Virus record (IMG/VR): IMGVR_UViG_3300045988_121434
Span: 32,001-96,000 of that record
DNA: 64,000 nt
DNA from: a virus
Direction: 5' to 3' (one strand)
Position 1 is the first letter of the stretch; each line of letters begins with the position of its first letter. A program made the position numbers and the translations under genes. Shown here piece by piece: positions 112 to 36,501 of this stretch. The notes beneath the pieces are model-generated. The model ran no database searches, was not told where the DNA came from, and saw nothing but the letters and a program-made list of their open reading frames with translations.

Positions 112-885
112 ATGGGAGTATTAACGATAAAACAAGTTAAGTCTTTTCTATCGGTGGATGACAGTCAAGACACCGACTATGAAGTTTCCGATGGCAGTGG
201 CTATGGCAGTGGCAATGGCTATGGCAGTGGCAGTGGCTATGGAAGTGGCAATGGCTGTGGCAGTGGCAGTGGCTATGGAAGTGGCTGTGGCTATGGAAGT
301 GGCTGTGGCAGTGGCAATGGCTGTGGCGATGGCAGTGGCTATGGCAAAGGCAACGGCTGTGGCAATGGCTATGGCGATGGCAGTGGCAATGGCAAAGGCG
401 ATGGCTGTGGCGGCGTGAAAGAAATCAATGGGCACGCGGTGTATGTGATTGACAACACGAGAACCATTATAACCTCCACCCATGGCAATGTAGCGCAAGG
501 CTTCATCCTTGAACATAACACGAAATTGGTGCCGTGCTATATTGCCAAGGATAATAATCACTTCGCTCACGGGAAAACATTGCGTGAAGCTTTCGCGTCC
601 CTTCAAGAGAAGCTCTACGACGACAGCACCGAGGAAGAAAGAATACGGGCGTTCAAACGAAAGTTCCCCTCTTACGACACGAAGTACAGCAATCAAGACC
701 TGTTCGTTTACCATCATGTGCTCACGGGCAGTTGCCGCATGGGCAGGGAGTCGTTCGCGAATAGCAGGGGCATCTCGCTTAGCGACAAGACCACCGTCCG
801 AGAGTTCGTCCAGCTCACCAAGGACGCTTACGGTAGCGATATAATCAAAAAGCTGCCAAAGGCTTATGGTCTATCTTGTCTATGA
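112..885 (+). CDS. Gly-X repeat protein with conserved C-terminal domain, function unknown
   Basis: 257-codon ORF. Codons ~28-101 are an unbroken (Gly-X)n run (X = S,Y,N,C,D,K). A non-repetitive ~155-aa domain follows (FAHGKTLREAF, LTGSCRMGRESF). Confidence 0.6.
   Translation: MGVLTIKQVKSFLSVDDSQDTDYEVSDGSGYGSGNGYGSGSGYGSGNGCGSGSGYGSGCGYGSGCGSGNGCGDGSGYGKGNGCGNGYGDGSGNGKGDGCGGVKEINGHAVYVIDNTRTIITSTHGNVAQGFILEHNTKLVPCYIAKDNNHFAHGKTLREAFASLQEKLYDDSTEEERIRAFKRKFPSYDTKYSNQDLFVYHHVLTGSCRMGRESFANSRGISLSDKTTVREFVQLTKDAYGSDIIKKLPKAYGLSCL
193..414 (+). repeat. (GGC-NNT)37 tandem hexanucleotide repeat inside CDS 112..885
   Basis: 37 consecutive GGC-NNT dicodons (GGCAGT, GGCTAT, GGCAAT, GGCTGT and similar). 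It generates spurious ORFs in the other frames and on the other strand. Confidence 0.9.
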
Positions 886-1450: not shown

Positions 1451-2110
1451 ATGGCATGGTTAGCGGTAGACAAGGACGGTACGGAAAAAGTTTTCGATGT
1501 ACGGCCGTTTAGAGGCAACACGCAGGAAGACAAAGACCACGTGTGGGGGTTGTATGCTGGGGAAGAATACGATAGGTGGTATCCTCAACATGACGAACGC
1601 GAGGATGACACAGGCTATGCTTATTACCGTGGCTACTCGGTAGAGCTGCCCCACGGTACGATAGGCACGCTTATCGGGAAAAAGCTGTCATGGGCGGATG
1701 AACCCGTAGAACTTAAGGAAAAAGCCACAGGCAACAACAAGGTACAATATCAAAAGTGGTTTTGGAGCGACCACATACTCATAACTGATAGCATCAACAA
1801 CGCATCCGTGCAGGTAGCCGTGTTCAACCAGCAGGAGCTAAAAGACGAATATCACGCGGACGCCCTTATTTACGCCCTTTACGTTGACGAATCCTGCCGC
1901 AAGCGCGGCATCGGCAAGGGACTTCTCGAACAGGCCGAACGGCTCGCACATGACCATCACTGCCGCGTGGTGGCTCTCGAATGGGAAGAACAGGCAACCC
2001 CACGATGGACGCTCGAATGGTATCTTAGACAAGGCTATAAAGACACACGGTTAGGGACTGATTGCACCCTGCTTGTTAAAGACCTGCGGAAAGGAGGCAA
2101 CGATGGATAG
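1451..2110 (+). CDS. two-domain protein with C-terminal GNAT N-acetyltransferase domain
   Basis: The C-terminal half has the GNAT motif A (ALYVDESCRKRGIGKGLLEQAERLA). It is a paralogue of the ORF at 8477..8830. Confidence 0.75.
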   Translation: MAWLAVDKDGTEKVFDVRPFRGNTQEDKDHVWGLYAGEEYDRWYPQHDEREDDTGYAYYRGYSVELPHGTIGTLIGKKLSWADEPVELKEKATGNNKVQYQKWFWSDHILITDSINNASVQVAVFNQQELKDEYHADALIYALYVDESCRKRGIGKGLLEQAERLAHDHHCRVVALEWEEQATPRWTLEWYLRQGYKDTRLGTDCTLLVKDLRKGGNDG

Positions 2111-3481: not shown

Positions 3482-3935
3482 AGCAGAAGACCTTAGAATA
3501 GGCGACATTGTGCAGACAAACAAAGACTGCATGTTTCCGAAAGACACATTGTGCATCGTTACCGAAATCCATCCCGACCGACAGTTTAATGACAAAAAGG
3601 GAGTCGTCAGTCTGAAGGCTGTCAACGACGAAGACGACGGTCCCTGGGGGACATGGTGCTGCAACATCGATGGCGTGCCCATCACGCCCGAAATACTTCG
3701 CAATAATGACTTTAAGGAAGAAGTCGAAGGCAAATACTTCACAAGGCCAATCAAAGTCAGAGCAGGCAGTTCCCTTGCCAGATATTTGGCTGTAGAACGA
3801 AAAAAATACGCTTGGGCAATATTCATAAAGTATTACAACGTGACAGGCTATGCACTCTTATGTCATGTAAAGTACGTTCACGAACTACGGCTCGCCCTTA
3901 AAATAGTAAAATTTAATCCGGAAATGAAAGTATAA
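3474..3935 (+). CDS. hypothetical phage protein (153 aa)
   Basis: Track ORF 3432..3935. The ATG at 3474 (MIKAEDLRIGD) is the more plausible start. Confidence 0.5.
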   Translation: MIKAEDLRIGDIVQTNKDCMFPKDTLCIVTEIHPDRQFNDKKGVVSLKAVNDEDDGPWGTWCCNIDGVPITPEILRNNDFKEEVEGKYFTRPIKVRAGSSLARYLAVERKKYAWAIFIKYYNVTGYALLCHVKYVHELRLALKIVKFNPEMKV

Positions 3936-3963
3936 TGTGGATGAATAAGTAAGTAACAAAACA

Positions 3964-4098
3964 ATGACTGACATTAAGATTTCGGTGCATCCGTTTGGCC
4001 ATAAGCTCGAATGGCGAGGATGGGGGGGTAACTTCTCGCCTGCTCTACGAGCCACCGACTACAAATGCCCTCACTGTATAATGATTGAATATGACTAA
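3964..4098 (+). CDS. C5-MTase TRD-like micro-ORF A1 (44 aa)
   Basis: MTDIKISVHPFGHKLEWRGWGGNFSPALRATDYKCPHCIMIEYD. It has an SPALRA..K loop typical of C5-MTase TRDs and contains a G7 tract. Its stop overlaps the next ATG (GAATATGACTAA). Confidence 0.6.
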   Translation: MTDIKISVHPFGHKLEWRGWGGNFSPALRATDYKCPHCIMIEYD

Positions 4099-4225
4099 GC
4101 AACACCCATTCGATGATTTTCATCAGCGCATTCATTGGGACGGCAACTCCATCGGAACCGTTACCCAGCAATGGGGCAATCCTGCGCCGAGGCACGGATG
4201 GCGAATAATGACAGAATATGATTAA
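4091..4225 (+). CDS. C5-MTase TRD-like micro-ORF A2 (44 aa)
   Basis: ...DGNSIGTVTQQWGNPAPRHGWRIMTEYD, ending at the junction GAATATGATTAA. Confidence 0.5.
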   Translation: MTKQHPFDDFHQRIHWDGNSIGTVTQQWGNPAPRHGWRIMTEYD

Positions 4226-4547
4226 CCCTCACACGCCCCGCTACAAGCGCGGCACCATCACCAAGGACGGCAAGCTATACGGACGCTATCCCGACGGTTC
4301 GCTCTACCGCATCTACTCCACCTCTGACCGACCCTTCCTTCAGATTGTTGACCGCAAGGGCGAGACGTTCCTTCGCATACGCCAAGCCACCGAGCAGGGC
4401 TATACCGACTGCCCTTGCCCTGGTGCTGCCGACCTCAGCTATTCCTCCTCGGCTCTAAGGCGCAGCAGGACGGTTGGGGGGGGGGGTAAGCTGGTGAACG
4501 CTCTGACCGCAGCAAGCGGAGGGGCGTGCGTGTTTGTTGAATTATGA
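4218..4547 (+). CDS. C5-MTase TRD-like ORF A3 (109 aa)
   Basis: ...LSYSSSALRRSRTVGGGGKLVNALTAASGGACVFVEL. The GGGG is encoded by a G11 tract (4476-4486). The ORF ends VEL-TGA, overlapping an ATG. Confidence 0.6.
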   Translation: MINPHTPRYKRGTITKDGKLYGRYPDGSLYRIYSTSDRPFLQIVDRKGETFLRIRQATEQGYTDCPCPGAADLSYSSSALRRSRTVGGGGKLVNALTAASGGACVFVEL

Positions 4548-4554
4548 CTTGAAT

Positions 4555-4731
4555 ATGCTTAGAGCAAAGGCAATATCAATAATGGTGAAAAAGGTGGAGC
4601 AGACCATGGTGTTTCAGAACATGCAAGCCAAAGGTCTGATAACGCCTCGCTCGCTTGATGGCGAATGTTTTACTCTTACGTCTGCAATGGGATTAGGGGG
4701 GGCAAACGCCTGTAATAGTAAAGGTATATGA
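4555..4731 (+). CDS. C5-MTase TRD-like micro-ORF A4, C-terminus out of canonical frame at a G7 tract
   Basis: ...GECFTLTSAMGLGG, then ANACNSKGI-stop. With 6 instead of 7 G at 4696-4702 it would read LGGQTPVIVKVYD-stop (4735), ending at the canonical junction TATATGACTAA. The track ORF starts at TTG 4534. Confidence 0.5.
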   Translation: MLRAKAISIMVKKVEQTMVFQNMQAKGLITPRSLDGECFTLTSAMGLGGANACNSKGI

Positions 4732-4859
4732 CTAAATACGACCTCTACCAATATCCTCGTGGCTACAACGACGGAGGTAGATTAGGCACTGACGTTTGCC
4801 CGACCTTGACAATCAATTCGTGGCAGCAAAATGTATTTCTGATTGAAGAATATGAATAA
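4728..4859 (+). CDS. C5-MTase TRD-like micro-ORF A5 (43 aa)
   Basis: MTKYDLYQYPRGYNDGGRLGTDVCPTLTINSWQQNVFLIEEYE. It has a CPTLT loop and ends at the junction GAATATGAATAA. Confidence 0.65.
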   Translation: MTKYDLYQYPRGYNDGGRLGTDVCPTLTINSWQQNVFLIEEYE

Positions 4860-4871
4860 AGCAAAGACAAT

Positions 4872-6200
4872 ATGATCACAAAACTCAATTTCACCGACCG
4901 CACCATCAAGAGCTATGCTATCCGTAAGCTCACGCCAAAGGAGTGTTTCCGCTTGATGGGCGTTCGCGACAACGTAATCGGCACGATGCAGAGCAGCAAT
5001 GCCCAAGCAGCCGAACGTTTGCCCGACTGGAAGGGCAAGGGCAAACCCGAAGACATGGCTATATCTGCCTCACAGCAGTACAAGCAAGCCGGAAACTCAA
5101 TCGTGGTGGACGTGTTGGCCCACATCTACGAGCAACTTTTCTATCCCGCACCGCCCAAGCCCCGCAAGCAGGAACAGCTCACGCTCTTCGCCGACCTTGA
5201 TGACTCGCTGCCCGCCATGCCACCAACAGCCGGAGAACGTGGTAAGGAAAATCTTTTCCTCACCACGTTCTCCGGCTACGACTCGCAGCTCATGGCAGCC
5301 GACGTGCTATGCGAGTGGCATCCCGACTTCCGATGGACATGCGTAGGATGGAGCGACATCGACAAATACGCCTGTCAGATGCACAACCTCGTCTTCCCTC
5401 AGTTTGCCGACTGCGCCCTTGGCGACATCACCAAGATTGACTGGCATGAGGTGAAACGCTCGCTCCATGGGCGCGAGGTTGACATCTTCACCTATTCCTC
5501 GCCTTGCCAGGACATCAGCCAAGCCGGAAAGCAAATGGGACTGAAAGAGGGCAGCGACACACGAAGCGCCCTGCTTTGGCGAGTGGCAGATGCCGTGGAG
5601 GTGTTGCGCCCGAAATATCTCTTGCAGGAGAACGTGGCGGCACTGGTAAGCTCGAAGTTCATGCCCGACTTTCAGAAGTGGCTCGACAAACTCTCCTCGC
5701 TCGGCTATGTGAGCCGTTGGGCGCGACTCAACGCAAAGAACTATGGTGTGCCACAAAACCGCGATCGTGTGTTCTGCATTTCCATGCGCAAAGACGTAGC
5801 CTTCGACTATCAGTTTCCCGAACCCTTCGAGCTGCGCACCCGACTGGAGGACGTGTTGGAAAATGAGGTAGCCGACCGTTATTTCCTAAAAGACGATGCC
5901 GTGAGCAAGTTTCTCAAGGCTAACGACTCCGACAACGCCCTATTCATGCAGTTCGACCTGCCACCGACACACGAGGCAGCGATGTTCCTCAAGACCGTGC
6001 TTCAGATATTCATGGAGCGTCACGACGGATGGGACGAAGGCATTGAGTGGAACGAGAAGGAGCTGAGCTATCGTCGCCCAACCATCGCCCGTCTCTACGA
6101 AAAGTTCAAGGAGAACCCAAAGAAACTGGACGTGGAATATTGGCGCGGCTTTTACAAGATGTTTAAGGAGAATATGGAGAGGAATAAGGATGCGAACTGA
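4872..6200 (+). CDS. circularly permuted DNA (cytosine-5)-methyltransferase catalytic core
   Basis: Motifs appear in the order IX (IRKLTPKECFRLMGV), X (QAGNSIVVDVL), Pro-rich linker, I (LFLTTFSGYDSQ), II (WSDIDKYA), IV (SSPCQDIS), VI (LLQENV), VIII (GVPQNRDRVF). The tail is the usual start of the variable region (LEDVLENEVADRYFL). Confidence 0.9.
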   Translation: MITKLNFTDRTIKSYAIRKLTPKECFRLMGVRDNVIGTMQSSNAQAAERLPDWKGKGKPEDMAISASQQYKQAGNSIVVDVLAHIYEQLFYPAPPKPRKQEQLTLFADLDDSLPAMPPTAGERGKENLFLTTFSGYDSQLMAADVLCEWHPDFRWTCVGWSDIDKYACQMHNLVFPQFADCALGDITKIDWHEVKRSLHGREVDIFTYSSPCQDISQAGKQMGLKEGSDTRSALLWRVADAVEVLRPKYLLQENVAALVSSKFMPDFQKWLDKLSSLGYVSRWARLNAKNYGVPQNRDRVFCISMRKDVAFDYQFPEPFELRTRLEDVLENEVADRYFLKDDAVSKFLKANDSDNALFMQFDLPPTHEAAMFLKTVLQIFMERHDGWDEGIEWNEKELSYRRPTIARLYEKFKENPKKLDVEYWRGFYKMFKENMERNKDAN

Positions 6201-6381
6201 CAACCCACCCGACCGTGTAATCCATATCATAGCTGATATGATTATGGGTGGCAGGTTGCTCACCTGCCCTGCCTCGATGTTCAGTGCAGAACGCTGCAAC
6301 GGAGCCTTTCACGGCATAGCAATAACCATCATGTCGCGCACCGATTGCAGCGACGTGTTCTTTGTAGCAGTAGAATTATGA
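6190..6381 (+). CDS. C5-MTase TRD-like micro-ORF B1 (63 aa)
   Basis: ...NGAFHGIAITIMSRTDCSDVFFVAVEL. The GIAIT loop resembles the HhaI-type loop. The start overlaps the core stop, and the ORF ends VEL-TGA overlapping an ATG. Confidence 0.55.
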   Translation: MRTDNPPDRVIHIIADMIMGGRLLTCPASMFSAERCNGAFHGIAITIMSRTDCSDVFFVAVEL

Positions 6382-6526
6382 AGAAAACCAACCCGTGTCA
6401 CGCAATACAAAATGGGGGGGTACGATTGCGCCTGCAATTACTTCCCACTATTTTAAGGCTGGTGTGCGAGACTTCCTCTTTGCCCTTGCCATACCACATT
6501 GTTGTTTGATAGTAGAATATGAATAA
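6378..6526 (+). CDS. C5-MTase TRD-like micro-ORF B2, frame broken at a G7 tract
   Basis: The ATG frame reads MKKTNPCHAIQNGG. With 8 instead of 7 G at 6414-6420 it continues GTIAPAITSHYFKAGVRDFLFALAIPHCCLIVEYE-stop at the junction GAATATGAATAA. Confidence 0.45.
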
Positions 6527-6671
6527 CAACCCTCGCCCTATCATCCTCGGCTCTTACAGTCCCTCGCAGAACGGCATCATCGTGTCACCACACGGCATAG
6601 CCTTGTGCATAGCCGGGGGAGGTAAGGGTCACGATGTGGATAAACCGAAAATACTGATAGAGTATGACTGA
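6519..6671 (+). CDS. C5-MTase TRD-like micro-ORF B3 (50 aa)
   Basis: MNNNPRPIILGSYSPSQNGIIVSPHGIALCIAGGGKGHDVDKPKILIEYD, ending at the junction GAGTATGACTGA. Confidence 0.65.
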   Translation: MNNNPRPIILGSYSPSQNGIIVSPHGIALCIAGGGKGHDVDKPKILIEYD

Positions 6672-6843
6672 CAAGTATTACATTGGCTGGGTACGCAGCG
6701 GCAAGGACGGCAAGGGCCTCGTAAAGAGCAGACCGCGCAAGCAGATAGCCAATGCCGTGACGACAATGGTCGGAAGAGGTATTGCCGACCCTCGCGACGG
6801 ACTCGGCAACACCACACCGCATATAGTATATGAATTTGAGTAA
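6664..6843 (+). CDS. C5-MTase TRD-like micro-ORF B4 (59 aa)
   Basis: ...RKQIANAVTTMVGRGIADPRDGLGNTTPHIVYEFE. Confidence 0.55.
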   Translation: MTDKYYIGWVRSGKDGKGLVKSRPRKQIANAVTTMVGRGIADPRDGLGNTTPHIVYEFE

Positions 6844-6860
6844 CCCATAAAACAAAAAAA

Positions 6861-7241
6861 ATGGAAAAAGACAAAAACGTAGAGATAGGCCGTGCTCTCG
6901 CCAATTTTGATATGGCCTGTCGCAATTTGGTCAACCTTGTCAACGACCAACTCTTCGAGACCTCCCGCTCACCCTACTGGGTAGCCGACGAGGTAGGAGG
7001 CATCTGCGACTTCGGCGATACCGACTTCCTCACGCCCGAAGAAATGGTGCTCATTCTCGAACACGGCGTCAGCTACGACGACTATGTAGAGTGGCGCGAA
7101 GCCAACATCAAGTATGGCGACACCAAAGGCTACATCAAACTCAAGTCATGGCTCCGCGGATGCCGACACGACCGTGTGGAGGGTGCAAATACCAAGACAA
7201 ACTGCATCGCCCCAGTCCGTGGCCGTGGAGTAATTCGATAA
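6861..7241 (+). CDS. hypothetical protein (126 aa) embedded in the TRD array
   Basis: ORF with a non-TRD-like N-terminal 100 aa. Its 3' end overlaps a cryptic TRD-like frame (7148..7285). Confidence 0.5.
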   Translation: MEKDKNVEIGRALANFDMACRNLVNLVNDQLFETSRSPYWVADEVGGICDFGDTDFLTPEEMVLILEHGVSYDDYVEWREANIKYGDTKGYIKLKSWLRGCRHDRVEGANTKTNCIAPVRGRGVIR

Positions 7242-7266
7242 CAACAGTAACAAAAGACAACCTCCT

Positions 7267-7440
7267 ATGCTACACTTTCGCATAGCAGCCTTTCGAGGCC
7301 GTGACCCCGACAATCCGTCCGACCGCAAGCATCCCTCCTGCGGTCGTTTCCGTCAGCGCATGGAGATAAATGCGTTGGGTACGACCAACACGCTTACGTC
7401 AGTAGGCAAGGATAATATGGCATATATAGAGTATGAATAA
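7267..7440 (+). CDS. C5-MTase TRD-like micro-ORF B5 (57 aa)
   Basis: MLHFRIAAFRGRDPDNPSDRKHPSCGRFRQRMEINALGTTNTLTSVGKDNMAYIEYE. It shows the RGR...NTLTSVxKDN TRD pattern and ends at the junction GAGTATGAATAA. Confidence 0.65.
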   Translation: MLHFRIAAFRGRDPDNPSDRKHPSCGRFRQRMEINALGTTNTLTSVGKDNMAYIEYE

Positions 7441-7582
7441 TCAAACCCCATTCGTGCAACGCCTCTCTCGCCTCTGCCCACGTCGGGGGTACTCCACCGC
7501 CCTGTCCGCACGCTACGACGGATGGGCAGGGCTCTACGACGAGCACGGACAGCACACCATTGTATTGATAGAGTATGAATAA
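7433..7582 (+). CDS. C5-MTase TRD-like micro-ORF B6 (49 aa)
   Basis: ...RGYSTALSARYDGWAGLYDEHGQHTIVLIEYE. The TALSARY loop resembles the Dcm/EcoRII-type TLSARY loop. Confidence 0.6.
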   Translation: MNNQTPFVQRLSRLCPRRGYSTALSARYDGWAGLYDEHGQHTIVLIEYE

Positions 7583-7715
7583 GTACATACAAAATTGTCC
7601 GTCAGGTATCTGTTGCGTTCTGACCTCTCATTACGCAAGAGAAGGATGGGCGAACATAGCAAGCAATACAACATCACAATGCAAAGCACCCACAATATTG
7701 ATAGAGTATGAATAA
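7575..7715 (+). CDS. C5-MTase TRD-like micro-ORF B7 (46 aa)
   Basis: MNKYIQNCPSGICCVLTSHYAREGWANIASNTTSQCKAPTILIEYE. The VLTSHYxxxG loop is similar to that of B2. Confidence 0.55.
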   Translation: MNKYIQNCPSGICCVLTSHYAREGWANIASNTTSQCKAPTILIEYE

Positions 7716-8202
7716 AAATGTAACAAACCCCATAAAAACAACAGAGACAATGAAACCAGAAGAAAACAACCGTATGGAGGCACTTGCCTACATCATAGCC
7801 GACCTAAAGGCAGAGAACATAGAGCTGGTGCAGCGTGTGCATCAGCTTGTGGAGGATTACAACGACGTAGCACGTCAGTTGCGTGGAATGGAGAAGCGTA
7901 AGGACGAAGACCAGTCAAGGCAGACGCTCGGCGAAATGATGCAGATGCGCGACCATTGCGACAAACTGGAGGTTGAAAACAACAATTTGAAGACGTGCTT
8001 GATAGCAGTCAGCTCGTTTCTGCGAGACAAAAATCTGTATATGGCTAATGGCACATTATGTTCTTATGGGTCTGGCAATCCAGAAGTATGTCCTGAGTAC
8101 TGCAAAAAATGTAACTCCTACCTAAGTACTTTAAAGGATGTTGGTGTGGTTTGCAGCAGAAGACTTGCAGAAGCTTCCGTAATTTTTGCGAAGAGTAAAT
8201 GA
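7708..8202 (+). CDS. hypothetical coiled-coil / Cys-rich protein (164 aa) embedded in the TRD array
   Basis: The ORF starts at a canonical array junction ATG. It has a central heptad-like region and C-terminal CxxxC / CxxC pairs. Confidence 0.5.
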   Translation: MNKNVTNPIKTTETMKPEENNRMEALAYIIADLKAENIELVQRVHQLVEDYNDVARQLRGMEKRKDEDQSRQTLGEMMQMRDHCDKLEVENNNLKTCLIAVSSFLRDKNLYMANGTLCSYGSGNPEVCPEYCKKCNSYLSTLKDVGVVCSRRLAEASVIFAKSK

Positions 8203-8360
8203 CACCAACAAAAACCCTCGTAGTCGGCATGATGCAGACGCCACCCTATGACCGCATGTTTGAGCAGAGCCGCCGCGTGTACTCCGCTCAGGGAATATCG
8301 CCCACGCTGCATACACAAGGGGGGGGTGATAGAGAGATTAAGGTATTGGTGGAGCTGTAA
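8199..8360 (+). CDS. C5-MTase TRD-like micro-ORF B8 (53 aa)
   Basis: MTPTKTLVVGMMQTPPYDRMFEQSRRVYSAQGISPTLHTQGGGDREIKVLVEL. It shows the classic RVYSxxGxSPTL..GGG pattern, with GGG encoded in a G8 tract. Confidence 0.7.
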   Translation: MTPTKTLVVGMMQTPPYDRMFEQSRRVYSAQGISPTLHTQGGGDREIKVLVEL

Positions 8361-8476
8361 GAATGTCCGCTCCATATCGCCGACAACACCTATCTTTGCA
8401 CATATCACTGAACGAATGAGACTAACATCGTTTTCATTTGTTTCGTCTGGTGACAAACAAAAACAACATTTCATCT

Positions 8477-8830
8477 ATGATACAACATCAGCATTGGGAA
8501 GACTCCACTCACATACTCATTACCGACGAGCAGCATCATGGCAGCATACAGGTGTTCATCCCCAAGCGCACCGAAGACAAGCCCTTGGATGGCGAGGCTG
8601 ACGCTCTCGTCTATTCGCTGTGGGTGGGCGAACGGCACCGTGGCCGTGGGGTGGCAAAACTCCTGATGGAGACAGCCGAAAGGGAACTGAAGCGCTGCGG
8701 CATAGCGACCGTCGCTATATCGTGGGATGGACGCGACTCTCCCCAATGGGTGTTGCAATGGTATGAAAGGTTGGGCTACGAAGGAAAAGCGTTCGACTAC
8801 CGCTGCTGCACGCTTCTTAAACGGTTGTAG
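8477..8830 (+). CDS. GNAT-family N-acetyltransferase
   Basis: LWVGERHRGRGVAKLLMETAEREL is GNAT motif A. It is a paralogue of the C-terminal half of 1451..2110. The track ORF starts at 8438. Confidence 0.75.
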   Translation: MIQHQHWEDSTHILITDEQHHGSIQVFIPKRTEDKPLDGEADALVYSLWVGERHRGRGVAKLLMETAERELKRCGIATVAISWDGRDSPQWVLQWYERLGYEGKAFDYRCCTLLKRL

Positions 8831-8998: not shown

Positions 8999-10174
8999 AT
9001 GAGCGACTTAAAGATTTTTGCAAAGACCATTGAACCTGAAGCCCAGGAGCAAGTAAGGCAGATGGCAGAGAGCGAGGCTTACCGCGACTGTAAGATTCGC
9101 ATTATGCCCGATTGCCATGCCGGAAAGGAATGCACCGTAGGCACCGTGATTGAGACCCGCGGCAAAGTGGTGCCCAACACCGTGGGCGTTGACATCGGTT
9201 GCGGTATGCTCGTGTGGGATTTAGGCTTTGCCAACATTGATATGGAGATTCTCGACCGTATCATCAACGACAACATTCCAAGCGGATTCAATGTGCATGA
9301 GAAGCGTTTGTCGTCAGAGATGGTTTCCCTTATGCACAATGAAATATGGTGTTTTTTGCCTCCGTGGAAGCAATATTTTGACCTCGACTATGTACTGCGT
9401 TCGCTCGGCACCCTTGGCGGTGGCAGCCACTTTATTGAGGTTGACGTGGACGACGAAGGACGCAAGTATCTTGTAGTACATTCGGGTAGCCGCAATTTAG
9501 GCGTAAAGATATGCCGACATTTTCAGCAGTTGGCATCAAGACAATGCAACAACAGTGAGGAACGTGGACGTATCATTTCCGAACTGAAAGCTCAGGGCAG
9601 ACAGAGCGAGATAAACGATGCGCTGCGCCGGTTGAAACCCGTTTCTAAAGACATGGCCTACATTAGCGGTACCACGCTTGGCGATTACTATGATGCCATG
9701 CGCTTGTGTCAGCATTATGCCGACTTGAACCGTTTTCTTATGGCGCAAACCATAATCAAAGGTCTTGAACTAAAGTCTACAGGTCGTGTGTTCACCACCA
9801 TGCACAACTACATCGACACCTTCGGCATTATCCGCAAGGGAGCTGTGAGCGCAAAGAAGGGCGAGCCTCTGATTATCCCTCTGAACATGCGCGACGGTTC
9901 GCTGCTGTGTACTGGCAAGGGCAACAACGACTGGCTTCAGTCGGCTCCCCACGGCGCAGGCAGACTAATGTCGCGCTCGGCTGCCAAGAAGCAGCTCAGC
10001 ATGGACGAATACCGCCAACAGATGCACGACATCTACTCTACATCGGTATGCGAGGCCACAATCGACGAAGCTCCAATGGCGTATAAGTCGGCAGAGGAAA
10101 TAGAAGCGTTGATAGGCGACACCGTGAACATCGTGAAGCGCATTAAGCCGATATATAACTTTAAGGCGAAGTAA
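8999..10174 (+). CDS. rtcB: RtcB-family RNA 3'-phosphate ligase
   Basis: The 391-aa protein carries the RtcB metal and GMP-site motifs: MPDCHAGKE, GVDIGCGM, GGGSHFIEV, HSGSRNLG, TMHNYI, APHGAGR. Confidence 0.9.
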   Translation: MSDLKIFAKTIEPEAQEQVRQMAESEAYRDCKIRIMPDCHAGKECTVGTVIETRGKVVPNTVGVDIGCGMLVWDLGFANIDMEILDRIINDNIPSGFNVHEKRLSSEMVSLMHNEIWCFLPPWKQYFDLDYVLRSLGTLGGGSHFIEVDVDDEGRKYLVVHSGSRNLGVKICRHFQQLASRQCNNSEERGRIISELKAQGRQSEINDALRRLKPVSKDMAYISGTTLGDYYDAMRLCQHYADLNRFLMAQTIIKGLELKSTGRVFTTMHNYIDTFGIIRKGAVSAKKGEPLIIPLNMRDGSLLCTGKGNNDWLQSAPHGAGRLMSRSAAKKQLSMDEYRQQMHDIYSTSVCEATIDEAPMAYKSAEEIEALIGDTVNIVKRIKPIYNFKAK

Positions 10175-15383: not shown

Positions 15384-15803
15384 TTACATTTTGAATTGTT
15401 TTTTCAAGAAAGTGTTGCTTTTAATAAGCTCTATCATTTCCTCCTCGGAGTGTATTCCTTCCCAAAATACTTCAGTATGCGACCCACGCCTTTCATCATC
15501 TACGGAGAACGGCACGGCATAGTTGGTATATACAACACCGTGATGTTTTATCAAGTGACGACCTGGATTCTTGTAGATGTTATTGATCCACGTCTCGTTG
15601 TCACATTCAGTCCATATTTTACATTCTTTGTGGGTAAGATTTTTGTCGATACCCATAGGATAGTGACCTGCCTTGCCGTTACTTTTGTTCCGAAATAAAT
15701 GATCTTTGCCATATCGTGATTGTTTTATAATTCGCCAAAGTCCAGTTTCATCTGTTGGAATTTCTCGGCATACCATTGTTTGTATGATTTGCCCGAAATC
15801 CAC
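15384..15803 (-). CDS. hypothetical protein (up to 139 aa; start uncertain)
   Basis: The ORF overlaps the 3' end of the upstream gene by 79 nt if the first ATG is used. Internal ATGs are available. Confidence 0.4.
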   Translation of the reverse strand: MDFGQIIQTMVCREIPTDETGLWRIIKQSRYGKDHLFRNKSNGKAGHYPMGIDKNLTHKECKIWTECDNETWINNIYKNPGRHLIKHHGVVYTNYAVPFSVDDERRGSHTEVFWEGIHSEEEMIELIKSNTFLKKQFKM

Positions 15804-16882
15804 CAGTCGTAGATATTTTCCGCTATTTCGTTTTCTTGCTCCTCCGTCAAGCGGTCAGAAGAGGAGCTGGACGAAAACCCTGGGGCTGCGATATTCCGTA
15901 CACCTCTGTTTTGTCTCCAATGTTCCGGGTCTGGATGTTTGATGTAGCCGCCTGTGTCCTGAGCAATCCTCTGACGTTTCTGAGAGGCATCCAGTCCTTG
16001 CGGATGTTCCACCAAATATATTCTCTTTTGAATACCCCCCCCGTTTCGGATAGCCTTAATAGCCTTTATCCAGTTGCGCTTGATATGCGGATAGCGTTCA
16101 TTCTCGATGCGTTTCTGCTTTGCAGACGACATAGGGCAGCCGATGCAGCCGATGCGATGCCATCCCTCGTCGTAGAGCGAGCAATGCGGAACCTTCACCA
16201 CATCGTTAAGAAACTCCCATACGTCCTTTTCCGTCCAATAAATGATGGGTGAAATAAGCAGACTCTCTTTGCCGTGGATGCAGCTTAATGTCTGTTCTTC
16301 ATCAGCATTAGTGATATTCACGCCTTGCTCCTTGGATTTACGGCGAGCACGTTTAGCCTTCAGCTCCTGACGATATTCGTCCAGACCGTCAAGATTGCCA
16401 CTAAACTTTCGGTTATTTATTTCTACCTCATTTCGTTTGGCTCGGCGTGCGCTCTCTGCCTTGCGGATGCCGATTAGCGTTACCTTGCCAGCACCTGCCG
16501 TTTCCTTATATTCAGCGCAACACCAGCGCACACGCATAGTGGGCAGAATCTGCTTTTCTACGGCAATCTGAAAGATAGATTTGCCAGGCTTTAGCAGTTC
16601 CACCTCGGGATAGTTCTTCTTAACGAAACGTATCACTTCGGGTGGATCAACGCTCGTAAGATTCATGTGACCGCGAAATTTCACCCCCGCCAACTGAGTC
16701 ATGTGGAAAAGAGCTTGAGAATCCTTTCCACCACTAAACGCCAAGTAATATCCATTCTCGGCATCATAGTTGAGGGCTATCTTCTCTGCTTTTTGCAGCA
16801 GCTCCACCGAGTGAAGCATCTTTTTTCGCAGTCCTTCCGAAGCTCGCTCCAATGCTTCGGCAAGCGTAATGTCTATATTCAT
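15725..16882 (-). CDS. PP-loop ATP pyrophosphatase / PAPS-reductase-family protein (IbrA-like, with Cys-rich C-terminal extension)
   Basis: It has the SGGKDS PP-loop (YLAFSGGKDSQ) and later RIGCIGCPM. It contains a G8 tract on the coding strand (plus-strand C8 at 16035-16042). Confidence 0.7.
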   Translation of the reverse strand: MNIDITLAEALERASEGLRKKMLHSVELLQKAEKIALNYDAENGYYLAFSGGKDSQALFHMTQLAGVKFRGHMNLTSVDPPEVIRFVKKNYPEVELLKPGKSIFQIAVEKQILPTMRVRWCCAEYKETAGAGKVTLIGIRKAESARRAKRNEVEINNRKFSGNLDGLDEYRQELKAKRARRKSKEQGVNITNADEEQTLSCIHGKESLLISPIIYWTEKDVWEFLNDVVKVPHCSLYDEGWHRIGCIGCPMSSAKQKRIENERYPHIKRNWIKAIKAIRNGGGIQKRIYLVEHPQGLDASQKRQRIAQDTGGYIKHPDPEHWRQNRGVRNIAAPGFSSSSSSDRLTEEQENEIAENIYDWWISGKSYKQWYAEKFQQMKLDFGEL

Positions 16883-35547: not shown

Positions 35548-36501
35548 ATGGAACTACGACATTTGCGCTCCTTTGTTTTTGTGGCGGAAACAAAGTCGTT
35601 CAGTATCGCCGCCACCCGATGTTGCGTAACCCAATCGGCAGTAAGCCAGCATATCCGGGCATTGGAAGATGAATTAGGTTGCAAACTACTTATTCGTACC
35701 TCGCACGAAATCAACCTTACAGAGAGTGGCGAAGCTCTCTTGCCAAGGGCTAAGGACATCATCAAGCAGACAGAGGACTGCAAGGAACAAATTAATGCGC
35801 TTAACAACTGCATGATTGGTGAACTGCGTATAGGTATTGGCTCTTTCATCGCTCCTTACGTCAGAATGGCTGCACTCATTTTTATGGAGCGATACCCTAA
35901 CGTGCGTATCAATGCCGATTTCACAAAGGCGCATATCCTTAACAAAACGCTCCGTGCGCACATGATAGACCTCGCCTTTACCATGAACACGGCATATAGC
36001 CACGAGGGTATAGAGTCGCAGCCGTGCATACCATTCTCCGTGTATGCCATTATGCGTGATACCCATCCGCTTTCCTGTTTACCGAAAGTGTCGTATGAGG
36101 ATTTGTTGAAACACCCGGTCATAATGCCCGATGTTGGTGAGCGTGTGTTTGAAACCTGTCAGCAATACATACAGCGCGACCTGTATAAATTGAATATAAA
36201 ATGTGTGATAAGCGACCCCGATGAAGCACTTGCATCCGTGGAAGAAACGAAATGTGTTACGTTCATGACACAGCTCTATTTGCGCCACCACCCTACACTT
36301 GTGGCTCGCCCTATCGTGGGACTTGAACGCCAACTGATGAGTAATGCCCACTGGATGAAGGATGTTCCTATAAAGCGGTCAGCGCAAATTTTCTTGGATA
36401 TAATAAAGAATGAAGTAGTGCCTTATATTTCTGTTATCGAAGAGACGAAAGGCACTTTTACCCCCCCCCCGATAGATATTAGCAATTCTGCCTCACGCTA
36501 A
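35548..36501 (+). CDS. LysR-family transcriptional regulator
   Basis: The N-terminal wHTH is MELRHLRSFVFVAETKSFSIAATRCCVTQSAVSQHIRALEDELG. A ~200-aa substrate-binding-type domain follows. A C10 tract lies at 36461-36470 near the 3' end. Confidence 0.9.
   Translation: MELRHLRSFVFVAETKSFSIAATRCCVTQSAVSQHIRALEDELGCKLLIRTSHEINLTESGEALLPRAKDIIKQTEDCKEQINALNNCMIGELRIGIGSFIAPYVRMAALIFMERYPNVRINADFTKAHILNKTLRAHMIDLAFTMNTAYSHEGIESQPCIPFSVYAIMRDTHPLSCLPKVSYEDLLKHPVIMPDVGERVFETCQQYIQRDLYKLNIKCVISDPDEALASVEETKCVTFMTQLYLRHHPTLVARPIVGLERQLMSNAHWMKDVPIKRSAQIFLDIIKNEVVPYISVIEETKGTFTPPPIDISNSASR

What the first reader, a model, noticed from the sequence alone, without database searches (positions are those of the whole stretch)
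4872..6200. Circular permutation of the C5-MTase core (motifs IX-X precede I-VIII)
Seen: the ORF begins with motif IX (IRKLTPKECFRLMGV) and motif X (QAGNSIVVDVL). A Pro-rich linker follows (YPAPPKPRKQEQ...). Then come motif I (FSGYDSQ), II (SDIDKYA), IV (SPCQDIS), VI (QENV) and VIII (QNRDRVF). It ends in the usual entry into the variable region (LEDVLENEVADRYFL) without a TRD loop of its own. Established: the canonical order is I-VIII, TRD, IX-X. Permuted natural examples are rare; M.BssHII is the one I recall. Inference: the permutation leaves both ends of the chain exactly where a TRD normally inserts, which is the geometry needed to accept a TRD supplied in trans. The upstream micro-ORFs sit where TRDs precede motif IX. 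The downstream ones sit where TRDs follow motif VIII. This looks like a tandem duplication of a multispecific gene that was then trimmed.
Basis: partly seen in the sequence, partly recalled or inferred. Interest (0 to 1): 0.7.

Follow-up and report, generated by a model that had tools for sequence, protein, structure and literature searches.

The report
Phage methylase with detachable recognition peptides
A gut phage encodes a rearranged cytosine DNA methylase that has no DNA-recognition domain of its own, flanked by about fourteen tiny genes that each encode one such domain, apparently giving the phage a switchable toolkit for disguising its DNA from many host restriction enzymes.

Summary
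ORF 4872-6200 is a C5 cytosine methyltransferase. Residues 1-110 match the end of the Pfam model (motifs IX-X) and residues 111-442 match its start (motifs I-VIII). It has no target recognition domain (TRD), and no second IX-X segment exists in the 64 kb.

The permutation itself is a known kind (M.BssHII type). The surroundings are the new part. About 14 co-directional micro-ORFs of 43-109 aa flank the core.
- They are 47-57% identical to single TRD units inside the variable regions of conventional multi-TRD methyltransferases.
- They are under purifying selection (dN/dS 0.03-0.4).
- Each typically starts at an ATG that overlaps the previous stop by 8 nt. The Tyr codon that creates this ATG is TAT 179 times and TAC 5 times.
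- They recur in different orders and numbers in more than 80 related phage genomes, and also in a distant GC-rich phage.
- All five G runs of 7 or more in the window lie in these cassettes, and their length varies between genomes in step with reading frame.

Best explanation (about 0.6): a multispecific anti-restriction methylase whose TRDs are free subunits that can be switched on and off. Assembly in trans is inferred, not shown. Rating: new variant of a known kind, of high interest.

The parts
3964..4098 (+). TRD cassette U1 (family F4, 44 aa, ends IMIEYD). Contains a G7 tract at 4022-4028.
   Evidence: The family recurs in 28 or more loci. It is 55% identical to residues 568-605 of the 750-aa methyltransferase P0273. 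dN/dS is 0.15.
4091..4225 (+). TRD cassette U2 (family F7, 44 aa, ends IMTEYD). Its ATG overlaps the stop of U1 by 8 nt.
   Evidence: It is 54% identical to residues 404-438 of P0289, the last TRD unit before motif IX in that protein. dN/dS is 0.08.
4218..4547 (+). TRD cassette U3 (109 aa, large TRD type, ...ATEQGY...RRSRTVGGGGKLVNALTAA...FVEL). Contains a G11 tract at 4476-4486.
   Evidence: It is 47% identical to residues 481-534 of P0299. Homologues are present in 63 loci. G-runs of 5, 8 or 11 are in frame (28 copies) and runs of 6, 7 or 9 are out of frame (14 copies).
4555..4731 (+). TRD cassette U4 (58 aa from the first ATG, CFTLTSAMGLGG motif). Contains a G7 tract at 4696-4702.
   Evidence: Homologues are present in 17 loci. 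The T-L motif is read directly from the sequence. The start codon is uncertain: the ORF listing gives TTG at 4534.
4728..4859 (+). TRD cassette U5 (family F1, 43 aa, CPTLT motif, ends LIEEYE). ATGA overlap with U4. A TAA stop and four codons separate it from the core ATG, in the same frame in this genome only.
   Evidence: phmmer matches inside P0306, P0289 and P0261. dN/dS is 0.24. The in-frame relation is not conserved.
4872..5171 (+). Core, N-terminal module: beta-hairpin (residues 2-15), then motif IX (IRKLTPKECFRLMG) and motif X (AGNSIVVDVL).
   Evidence: PF00145 profile positions 270-322, E 4.9e-8. AlphaFold secondary structure.
5172..5246 (+). Core, Pro-rich flexible linker that joins motif X to motif I. 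It includes a 24-bp palindrome at 5228-5277 that is unique to this genome.
   Evidence: pLDDT is 50-68 for residues 100-125. The palindrome is described.
5247..5890 (+). Core, catalytic domain: motifs I (FSGYDSQ), IV (SPCQDIS), VI (QENV) and VIII (QNRDRVF).
   Evidence: PF00145 profile positions 23-225, E 5e-43. Foldseek top hits are M.HhaI, M.MpeI and M.HaeIII, E 6e-16. The catalytic residues are invariant across permuted relatives.
5891..6200 (+). Core, C-terminal extension (about 105 aa: helix, strand, helical bundle). Not a TRD; function unknown. A docking platform for TRD peptides is a conjecture.
   Evidence: pLDDT about 90. No Pfam family. The first part (YFLK..V.KFLK.N...) is conserved in permuted relatives at 40-50% identity.
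6190..6381 (+). Micro-ORF D1 (63 aa, ends VAVEL). It overlaps the core stop by 11 nt. TRD-like, but not verified by homology.
   Evidence: It is conserved in 35 loci at about 92% identity. No phmmer link to the other families was found.
6378..6526 (+). TRD cassette D2 (family F11), frameshifted at a G7 tract (6414-6420). One more G would restore MKKTNPCHAIQNGGGTIAPAITSHYF...LIVEYE.
   Evidence: Intact relatives read MKTTKPLHAIQMGGGTIAPAVTSHYFKAGVRDFLFALAIPHCCLIVEYD. dN/dS is 0.10.
6519..6671 (+). TRD cassette D3 (family F0, 50 aa, ends ILIEYD). -8 overlap with D2.
   Evidence: 58 or more loci. dN/dS is 0.08. A homologous cassette is present in the distant phage L085.
6664..6843 (+). TRD cassette D4 (family F5, 59 aa, ends IVYEFE). 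-8 overlap with D3.
   Evidence: dN/dS is 0.18. phmmer matches inside P0272 and P0340.
6861..7285 (+). Uncertain region. ORF 6861-7241 (126 aa, no family) overlaps, in another frame, a TRD-like cassette ending ...PWSNSITTVTKDNLLCYTFA* (an ATG at about 7148 to 7285 would give about 45 aa).
   Evidence: The cassette frame has homologues in 69 loci. It resembles SNAITTVTKDNLLMQE in the fused relative P0252 and the L085 ORF 3203-3391. Frame relations were read.
7267..7440 (+). TRD cassette D6 (family F8, 57 aa, TNTLTS motif, ends YIEYE).
   Evidence: It is 57% identical to residues 338-382 of P0313. dN/dS is 0.17.
7433..7582 (+). TRD cassette D7 (family F2, 49 aa, STALSARY motif, ends LIEYE). -8 overlap with D6.
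   Evidence: 49 or more loci. dN/dS is 0.12.
7575..7715 (+). TRD cassette D8 (family F6, 46 aa, CCVLTSHY motif, ends LIEYE). -8 overlap with D7.
   Evidence: phmmer matches inside P0314, P0307 and P0349. dN/dS is 0.28.
7708..8202 (+). ORF X2 (164 aa). The sequence suggests a coiled coil followed by a Cys-rich tail; this was not computed. Not a TRD. It is joined to the array by the same -8 overlap. Function unknown.
   Evidence: No Pfam or PHROG family. Homologues are present in 48 loci.
8199..8360 (+). TRD cassette D9 (53 aa, RRVYSAQGISPTLHTQGGG motif, ends VLVEL). ATGA overlap with X2. Contains a G8 tract at 8319-8326.
   Evidence: All 144 homologues found are 47-90 aa and free-standing. phmmer matches inside P0376, P0387 and P0338 among others.

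Best explanation
The block 3964-8360 is one co-directional module that encodes a multi-subunit, multispecific DNA cytosine-5 methyltransferase used by the phage to protect its DNA from host restriction enzymes.

The 442-aa core carries all catalytic motifs in permuted order (IX-X, linker, I-VIII). It therefore has free ends exactly where a TRD normally sits, and it has no TRD. Each of the roughly 14 micro-ORFs encodes one TRD unit of 43-109 aa. Each is translated separately, mostly by termination-reinitiation at an ATG overlapping the previous stop (TATGAnTRA).

Each peptide is proposed to dock non-covalently on the core, probably by pairing its conserved C-terminal hydrophobic-hydrophobic-E-Y-D/E strand with the core's N-terminal hairpin that precedes motif IX. 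That would give a holoenzyme with that peptide's sequence specificity.

Cassettes are gained, lost and reshuffled between genomes. Poly-G tracts inside several cassettes change length and switch individual specificities on or off.

Shown: the permutation, the absence of a TRD in the core, the TRD identity of the micro-ORFs, selection on them and on their start codons, the combinatorial arrays, and the link between G-tract length and frame. Inferred: assembly in trans, the docking mode, methylation of many distinct sites, the anti-restriction role, and within-population switching.
For: (1) Pfam and PDB alignments show IX-X before I-VIII with the TRD segment missing. The AlphaFold model is confident (pLDDT 88, pTM 0.80) and has an exposed N-terminal hairpin. 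Foldseek returns M.HhaI, M.MpeI and M.HaeIII.
(2) The catalytic residues (PC, ENV, QxRxR, RK..E, GNS) are invariant across relatives. Core dN/dS is 0.18. All 77 cores examined have an in-frame stop 1-49 codons upstream, so the TRD-less state is stably maintained.
(3) The micro-ORFs match single TRD units inside the variable regions of canonical enzymes of 350-777 aa, with phmmer E down to 1e-13 and 47-57% identity. In P0314, about nine tandem units end in ...GVMEV|IPLNTD..., which is exactly where the micro-ORFs end and begin.
(4) Relatives carry a TRD fused in frame to the same permuted core: P0297 and P0366 read ...YFISLEHNKDRKEQT-MIAQINVK..., against ...FLIEEYE*SKDN-MITKLNF... in the window.
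(5) All 18 cassette families have dN/dS of 0.03-0.40 at dS up to about 1.
(6) The Tyr codon that creates the overlapping ATG is TAT 179 times and TAC 5 times, against 315:264 and 219:290 in the background. The -8 overlap occurs in 105 adjacent pairs.
(7) Arrays differ in content and order in 84 of 85 loci, and families F3 and F1 occur on either side of the core.
(8) A distant GC-rich phage (L085) has the same design.
(9) All five G>=7 runs of the window lie in cassettes, and their length tracks frame: 5, 8 or 11 in frame, 6, 7 or 9 out of frame.
Against: There is no direct evidence of physical association. No methylation data are available. No free TRD subunit of a C5 methyltransferase is known, so there is no precedent. 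It is unclear whether peptides of 43-50 aa fold and bind stably, and about 14 peptides would compete for one core. D1, X1 and X2 in the array are not demonstrably TRDs. The micro-ORFs have no Pfam, PHROG or PDB match on their own. G-tract length differences between assemblies could in part be homopolymer assembly errors.
Confidence: 0.6

Rival explanations
1. The micro-ORFs are a silent cassette library. Specificity changes when recombination moves a cassette into an expression site fused to the core, as in pilS/pilE or hsdS shuffling. The free peptides themselves do nothing.
For: Cassette order and content differ widely between genomes. Fused TRD-core proteins exist in distant relatives. The junctions share about 20 nt of similarity (family D1).
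Against: None of the 77 cores in this clade carries a fused TRD. Silent cassettes would not need their own ATG, yet TAT is selected 179:5. Whole-ORF purifying selection holds in every family. Junction conservation falls on second codon positions, so it is protein-level rather than a DNA site. The junction repeats are direct, so recombination between them would only delete, and no arm-flanked invertible segment was found. The neighbourhood was not searched for a recombinase gene.
Confidence: 0.1
2. The cassettes are joined covalently during translation, by programmed +1 frameshifting or bypass at UAUGAnUAA. This would give a conventional single-chain multispecific enzyme or a poly-TRD protein.
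For: Successive cassettes are usually in the +1 frame relative to the previous one. The covalent multi-TRD form exists in relatives. U5 is in frame with the core in this window.
Against: The junction has no slippery sequence by inspection. What is conserved is an ATG, which is the signature of reinitiation. Distance and frame between the last upstream cassette and the core vary from 1 to 49 codons. The core-to-D1 junction is a different, 11-nt overlap. Non-TRD ORFs interrupt the array. No known recoding RNA element was found by Rfam.
Confidence: 0.08
3. The TRD-derived peptides have a different job. They might be decoys or inhibitors that bind host restriction or modification enzymes, or DNA. 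The TRD-less core would then be non-specific, or would use an unknown partner.
For: No test of association was possible. The micro-ORFs match no family on their own. The core has an uncharacterised 105-aa C-terminal domain.
Against: The peptides are homologous to bona fide TRD units, with the T-L type motif retained. They are strictly syntenic and translationally coupled with the core in two distant phage lineages. The same units are covalently attached to the same catalytic domain in relatives.
Confidence: 0.1
4. The region is the decaying wreck of a multispecific methyltransferase gene, broken by frameshifts. The permuted ORF is an accidental fusion.
For: Some cassettes are frameshifted or truncated, for example D2 in the window and several copies elsewhere.
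Against: dN/dS is 0.03-0.4 in all families and 0.18 in the core, at dS of 0.3-1.0. The architecture is conserved in the 120 listed homologues, all 438-458 aa at 88-93% identity, and in 80 IMG/VR loci. Start codons are conserved. Breaks cluster at poly-G tracts with period-3 behaviour rather than at random positions.
Confidence: 0.04

Closest known systems
Multispecific C5 methyltransferases of Bacillus phages (M.SPRI, M.Phi3TI, M.Rho11sI, M.H2I; Trautner and colleagues, from my own knowledge), and the metagenomic multi-TRD enzymes P0314, P0338, P0289 and P0386 found here
   Same: They are phage-encoded. One catalytic scaffold serves several short, self-contained TRD units, each with a T-L type motif. 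The window's micro-ORFs are homologous to such units, and their ends match the unit boundaries.
   Different: In those enzymes the TRDs are covalently linked in tandem between motifs VIII and IX of one unpermuted chain. Here every unit is its own ORF, the core is permuted and has no TRD, and the units carry poly-G switches.
Natural circularly permuted C5 methyltransferases (M.BssHII, M.Alw26I, M2.Eco31IC, M.Esp3I, M2.BsaI; 27 in REBASE; PMC5944983)
   Same: Motifs IX-X precede I-VIII, and the break lies in the variable region.
   Different: Those enzymes keep their TRD in the same chain (mostly Type H: TRD-IX-X-I-VIII) and have one specificity. The window's core starts after the TRD position.
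Split C5 methyltransferases M.AquI (alpha/beta) and M.EcoHK31I, and engineered fragment complementation of M.SssI, M.MpeI and M.HhaI (PMC5944983, PMC3404938; M.EcoHK31I from my own knowledge)
   Same: [quoted passage not shown]
   Different: Those are two-piece enzymes in which each piece carries conserved catalytic motifs. Here the detached piece would be the TRD alone, in many alternative versions.
Type I restriction-modification HsdS specificity subunits and phase-variable Type I/III systems (PMC3874165, PMC7383803)
   Same: It works like them: a separate, exchangeable specificity subunit for a common methylase, translational coupling of the genes, and simple-repeat or shuffling-based switching of specificity.
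   Different: There is no homology. Those are adenine N6 methylases, HsdS has two TRDs joined by helical spacers, and they are cellular defence systems rather than a phage counter-defence.

Membership tests
C5 cytosine DNA methyltransferase (PF00145) | Catalytic motifs IV (PC), VI (ENV) and VIII (QxRxR) | tested here: met
   SPCQDIS, QENV and QNRDRVF are present. Profile positions 23-225 match at E 5e-43. The residues are invariant in relatives.
C5 cytosine DNA methyltransferase (PF00145) | AdoMet-binding motif I (FxGxG) and motif X (GNS[VI]) | tested here: met
   The motif I variant FSGYDSQ is shared with canonical relatives (FAGYGSQ in P0314). AGNSIVV matches profile positions 270-322. The Pfam match starts at profile position 23, so part of motif I lies outside the aligned stretch.
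C5 cytosine DNA methyltransferase (PF00145) | A TRD in the same polypeptide, between motifs VIII and IX | tested here: not met
   Profile positions 226-269 are unmatched. The chain begins 15 residues before motif IX. After motif VIII it carries a helical extension without a T-L motif.
Circularly permuted C5 methyltransferases (M.BssHII type, Type H) | Motif X precedes motif I, and the break lies in the variable region | tested here: met
   The criterion is taken from PMC5944983.
Circularly permuted C5 methyltransferases (M.BssHII type, Type H) | The TRD is retained at the N-terminus of the permuted chain | tested here: not met
   The core starts MITKLNFTDRTIKSYAIRKLTP. All 77 cores have an in-frame stop 1-49 codons upstream. 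Distant relatives P0297, P0366 and P0252 do retain a TRD.
Multispecific phage C5 methyltransferases (SPR type) | Several independent TRD units serve one catalytic domain | tested here: inconclusive
   About 14 TRD-unit ORFs lie next to one core, and they are homologous to units of covalent multi-TRD enzymes. That they serve the core is inferred.
Multispecific phage C5 methyltransferases (SPR type) | The TRD units are contiguous within one polypeptide | tested here: not met
   Each unit has its own ATG and stop. The frames differ, with -8 overlaps.
Multispecific phage C5 methyltransferases (SPR type) | Methylation of several unrelated target sequences | not testable with these tools
   This needs methylome data or expression experiments.
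Split (heteromeric) C5 methyltransferases (M.AquI type) | Activity requires two or more separately encoded polypeptides | not testable with these tools
   It is inferred from the lack of a TRD in a conserved, selected core. No complex model could be made.
Phase-variable (contingency) loci | A homopolymer tract lies inside the coding sequence | tested here: met
   G7, G11, G7, G7 and G8 tracts are present. All five G>=7 runs of the 64 kb lie in cassettes.
Phase-variable (contingency) loci | Tract length is polymorphic, with in-frame and out-of-frame states | tested here: met
   For U3, runs of 5, 8 or 11 are in frame (28 copies) and runs of 6, 7 or 9 are out of frame (14 copies). For F4, runs of 4, 7 or 10 are mostly in frame (19 of 20) and runs of 8 mostly out of frame (15 of 16); F4 runs of 3, 5 and 6 are mixed.
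Phase-variable (contingency) loci | Reversible switching within one population | not testable with these tools
   This needs read-level data. The assemblies give only consensus sequences.

The most novel reading that the evidence does not exclude
This would be the first natural C5 cytosine methyltransferase that takes its DNA specificity from free, interchangeable peptides of about 45 aa. It would be an HsdS-like specificity-subunit system for 5-methylcytosine. A phage would carry a library of about 14 such subunits, individually switched by poly-G slippage, and reshuffle them between genomes to track the restriction and methyl-dependent restriction repertoire of its hosts.
Probability: 0.5. 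Interest if true: 0.9.

Novelty: new variant of a known kind. Interest (0 to 1): 0.8.

Why it matters
For C5 methyltransferases, recognition and catalysis have so far been found either in one chain or in two halves that both carry catalytic motifs.

A natural system in which a TRD of 43-60 aa is a free subunit would have three consequences:
- It would show that a TRD unit is an autonomous folding and docking module, and would give a tractable system for the structural question of how multispecific enzymes present alternative TRDs to one active site.
- It would provide a compact, programmable scaffold for targeted or multiplexed 5mC writing: one core plus small peptides.
- It would reveal a widespread counter-defence strategy in abundant human-gut phages (more than 7,900 homologues of the core at E <= 1e-5).

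In that strategy, cassette shuffling and homopolymer switching would let phage populations balance protection from classical restriction against exposure to methylation-dependent restriction. It would also mean that short ORFs of this kind, routinely discarded or labelled hypothetical, determine phage methylomes.

Tried and rejected
- Megablast of 3900-8500 against GenBank phages found no match. tblastn of the core found only hits below 60% identity. The terminase search showed only remote relatives among Bacteroidota phages.
- Pfam and PHROG scans of the micro-ORFs found no family.
- A profile of the 8199 cassette family and single cassettes (F2, U3) searched against PDB sequences gave only chance hits or nothing. 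Specificities therefore could not be predicted.
- The word-indexed search with cassette 8199 found only free-standing proteins of 47-90 aa. The link to long enzymes came only from a local phmmer search against the representative set.
- AlphaFold of the fused relative P0252 left the TRD part at pLDDT below 40.
- The IMG/VR scan with P0319 found nothing.
- The read-through fusion of U5 to the core was rejected, because frame and distance are not conserved.
- Stop-codon reassignment was rejected, because long ORFs are intact under code 11.
- A DNA recombination site at the junctions was judged unlikely, because conservation falls on second codon positions.
- The Rfam hit (mir-3155, below the gathering score) is simply the 24-bp palindrome.
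- The promoter and terminator scans were at or below shuffle expectation.
- My first count of intact against broken cassettes was inflated by cross-family hits and long query variants. I do not rely on it.
- Seven literature searches found no description of free TRD subunits of C5 methyltransferases. The library is incomplete, so prior description cannot be excluded.
Full report
**Setting.** The window comes from an uncultured gut phage of about 100 kb. The terminase has only remote relatives among Bacteroidota phages. Contigs that carry the same methylase are 90-109 kb long, and some are binned with Prevotella genomes. Binning of phage contigs is unreliable, so the host assignment is tentative. 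Nothing in GenBank phages is close.

**The observation.** ORF 4872-6200 (+, 442 aa) matches PF00145 at E 2e-51 in two stretches. I scanned the two parts separately.
- Residues 1-110 match profile positions 270-322 of 324 (motifs IX-X; E 4.9e-8, above the curated cut-off).
- Residues 111-442 match positions 23-225 (motifs I-VIII; E 5e-43).
- The TRD part of the profile (226-269) is unmatched.

phmmer against PDB gives the same swapped order relative to M.MpeI. An AlphaFold model built on 37 sequences is confident (mean pLDDT 88.2, pTM 0.80). It shows these elements in order:
- an N-terminal beta-hairpin (residues 2-15);
- the IX-X helices;
- a low-confidence Pro-rich linker (about residues 100-125);
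- the Rossmann-type catalytic domain (127-306);
- a helix, a strand and a helical bundle (341-436).

Foldseek returns M.HhaI, M.MpeI and M.HaeIII as best matches (E 6e-16). The alignments cover about 220-270 columns, as expected when a sequence-ordered aligner meets a permuted chain. No other IX-X or I-VIII segment exists in the 64 kb. The permutation is therefore real.

About 105 well-predicted residues follow. They are not TRD-like and match no family.

**Is the permutation new?** No. Slaska-Kiss et al. (PMC5944983) list M.BssHII, M.Alw26I, M2.Eco31IC, M.Esp3I, M2.BsaI and 22 further REBASE entries. [quoted passage not shown] What differs here is that the chain starts after the TRD position. 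More than 7,900 proteins match the core at E <= 1e-5, and the 120 listed are 438-458 aa long at 88-93% identity. In 77 related loci the core always has an in-frame stop 1-49 codons upstream, and its dN/dS is 0.18. The catalytic residues are invariant out to relatives at 40% identity. A TRD-less but selected catalytic core is thus the stable state of this lineage.

**The micro-ORFs.** On the same strand, tightly packed, lie these ORFs:
- five upstream: 3964, 4091, 4218, 4555 and 4728;
- eight or nine downstream: 6190, 6378, 6519, 6664, possibly about 7148, then 7267, 7433, 7575 and 8199;
- two non-TRD ORFs among them: 6861-7241 and 7708-8202.

Most end in hydrophobic-hydrophobic-E-Y-D/E. The next ATG overlaps the stop by 8 nt (TATGAnTRA).

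In 84 further loci, the ORFs ending in this motif fall into about 18 recurrent families. With this strict filter, 84 of 85 loci show at least one cassette. Content and order differ from genome to genome, and families such as F3 and F1 occur on either side of the core.

**Are they TRDs?** On their own they match nothing in Pfam, PHROGs or PDB. The word-indexed search with cassette 8199 returned only free-standing proteins of 47-90 aa.

The exhaustive representative search with the core supplied the link, in two ways.

First, it found permuted relatives at 41-50% identity that have 63-75 extra N-terminal residues (P0252, P0263, P0297, P0366). In P0297 and P0366 a TRD-like segment runs in frame into the conserved core start (...YFISLEHNKDRKEQT-MIAQINVK...IRKL). 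In the window the equivalent stretch reads ...FLIEEYE*SKDN-MITKLNF...IRKL.

Second, a local phmmer search of all cassettes against the 143 long representatives gave matches down to E 1e-13. All of these lie inside the variable regions of canonical enzymes of 350-777 aa. Pairwise BLASTP of window cassettes gives 47-57% identity over 35-55 residues.

P0314 (777 aa) carries about nine tandem units whose boundaries (...GVMEV|IPLNTD...) coincide with the ends and starts of the micro-ORFs. In P0289 the unit homologous to window cassette 4091 is the last one before motif IX (...RKIIEP-SF-RIRKLTP). The micro-ORFs are therefore single TRD units of the kind found covalently linked in multispecific enzymes.

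**Are they expressed as separate proteins?** Three results say yes.
- Every family is under purifying selection in its own frame: dN/dS 0.03-0.40, mostly 0.08-0.25, with dS up to about 1.
- Junction conservation falls on second codon positions, which points to a protein constraint rather than a DNA site.
- The Tyr codon that creates the overlapping ATG is TAT in 179 distinct junctions and TAC in 5. Tyr codons elsewhere run 315:264 in long ORFs and 219:290 inside the same micro-ORFs. The synonymous choice that preserves the start codon is therefore strongly selected, which is the signature of termination-reinitiation.

The -8 overlap occurs in 105 adjacent pairs. The in-frame relation of cassette 4728 to the core in this window is not conserved. 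This argues against read-through.

**Generality.** A GC-rich phage from IMG/VR (L085, 57% GC) has a core only about 44% identical to the window's. It also has a run of TRD micro-ORFs with -8 overlaps and ...IEYE ends directly upstream of a permuted core. One of these is a homologue of window family F0. L086 suggests further split arrangements. The design is not a quirk of one lineage.

**Poly-G switches.** All five G runs of 7 or more on the + strand of the 64 kb lie inside cassettes, at 4022, 4476, 4696, 6414 and 8319. Orthologous tracts vary from 3 to 11 G between genomes.
- For the 109-aa cassette, tracts of 5, 8 or 11 keep the two halves in frame (28 copies). Tracts of 6, 7 or 9 do not (14 copies).
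- For F4, tracts of 4, 7 or 10 are mostly in frame (19 of 20) and tracts of 8 are mostly out of frame (15 of 16). F4 tracts of 3, 5 and 6 are mixed.
- The window's own F11 copy (6378-6526) is off by one G at a G7 tract, compared with intact relatives.

This is the pattern of slipped-strand contingency loci. Homopolymer assembly errors could contribute, but they are unlikely to explain a third of copies.

**Mechanism proposed.** A TRD-less permuted core has free ends at the TRD slot. Free TRD peptides dock there, one at a time, and give many specificities. I infer three steps: docking of the conserved terminal strand on the core's N-terminal hairpin, an anti-restriction role, and bet-hedging against methylation-dependent restriction through the G-tract switches.

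Precedents make the biochemistry plausible. [quoted passage not shown] Permutants with termini in the variable region are active (PMC5944983, PMC3404938).

I could not test association. I put this explanation at about 0.6.

**Rival explanations.**
- A silent cassette library used by recombination does not explain the selected start codons or the absence of any fused core.
- Covalent joining by frameshifting lacks a slippery site. The variable distance to the core and the conserved ATG also argue against it.
- A different role for the peptides, such as decoys or inhibitors, cannot be excluded. It ignores their homology to TRDs and their synteny with the core.
- Gene decay is contradicted by the selection tests.

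**Origin.** In Bacillus phage Deep Blue, three methyltransferase genes abut without a gap. One tblastn segment there runs from IX-X of one gene into I-VIII of the next. This is the kind of precursor from which loss of a stop codon would create the permuted order.

**Literature.** Seven full-text searches found no description of free TRD subunits or micro-ORF TRD arrays for C5 methyltransferases. The library lacks most subscription papers, so prior description cannot be excluded.

**Verdict.** The permutation alone is a new member of a known kind. The whole system is more than that: a TRD-less permuted core, with a shuffled and phase-variable library of free TRD units. I rate it a new variant of known kinds (multispecific, permuted and split C5 methyltransferases), working like a Type I specificity-subunit system. 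Interest 0.8.

Noticed in passing
window 5228-5277: A 24-bp inverted repeat, 96% complementary with 2 nt between the arms, lies inside the core gene. The codons for AGERGKEN are the reverse complement of those for LFLTTFSG (motif I). It is unique to this genome: the 84 other loci have stems of 12 bp or less there. It also causes a spurious sub-threshold Rfam hit to mir-3155.
   Followed up: yes
window 16035-16042 and 36461-36470: These are the only other long G/C homopolymers in the 64 kb. The first is a C8 run (G8 in sense) inside minus-strand ORF 15725-16882, which looks like a PAPS-reductase type protein by eye. The second is a C10 run near the 3' end of ORF 35548-36501. Both are possible further slippage-prone sites.
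   Followed up: partly
window 35548-36501: This ORF looks like a LysR-type transcriptional regulator (N-terminal HTH: MELRHLRSFVFVAETKSFSIAA...). That is unusual cargo for a lytic-looking phage genome. The call was made by eye only.
   Followed up: no
window 112-885: This 257-aa ORF has a long N-terminal low-complexity region of GSGYGSGNG(C) repeats, followed by an ordinary-looking domain. The opposite strand and other frames give mirror-image repeat ORFs.
   Followed up: no
window 7708-8202: This 164-aa ORF is joined to the TRD array by the same -8 overlap on one side and an ATGA overlap on the other. From the sequence it looks like a coiled coil followed by a Cys-rich tail. Homologues are present in 48 of the related loci. 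It matches no Pfam or PHROG family, so its role in the module is unknown.
   Followed up: partly
window 6861-7285: Two overlapping frames occur here. One is a 126-aa ORF found in only 8 loci. The other is a TRD-like frame, ...HRPSPWPWSNSITTVTKDNLLCYTFA*, conserved in 69 loci. The N-terminal part of that TRD family (as seen in L085 and L075) seems fused to the 126-aa ORF, with a frame change near GGAGGG. It may be another switched or rearranged cassette.
   Followed up: partly
L085 5038-5226: In the GC-rich relative, a complete TRD-like micro-ORF (...CAVTLTTAHHYAGN...GVLIEYK*) lies in an alternative frame inside the core gene. In the core's own frame the same DNA reads as an in-frame insertion of about 65 aa between conserved motifs. 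It appears to be a cassette inserted into the core itself.
   Followed up: no
L086 3941-5168: This is a different split layout. A 342-aa ORF carries motifs I-VIII with one TRD fused at its C-terminus (...SPCHTAGHGNEPKIIEY...). It is followed by a separate 85-aa ORF with two TRD-like units ending ...PKIIEYEY. The contig ends before any IX-X segment could be seen.
   Followed up: no
L095 (Bacillus phage Deep Blue KU577463.1, 73536-76485): Three abutting C5 methyltransferase genes of 420, 341 and 222 aa lie here with no or 1-nt gaps. The last two may form a split enzyme. IX-X of the first gene runs directly into I-VIII of the second. This is a possible precursor state for a permuted gene.
   Followed up: partly
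window 1451-2110, 8438-8830 and 8999-10174: Two GNAT-type acetyltransferase ORFs and an RtcB RNA ligase flank the methylase module, which suggests a counter-defence neighbourhood. The acetyltransferase call for 8438-8830 rests on a PHROG hit. The Pfam labels for the GNAT and RtcB genes come from related loci. The call for 1451-2110 was made by eye.
   Followed up: no
P0246 (329 aa): This relative is 57% identical to the core. It starts at motif I, carries the same C-terminal extension and lacks the IX-X module. It is either a fragment or a further split in which IX-X is encoded separately.
   Followed up: no
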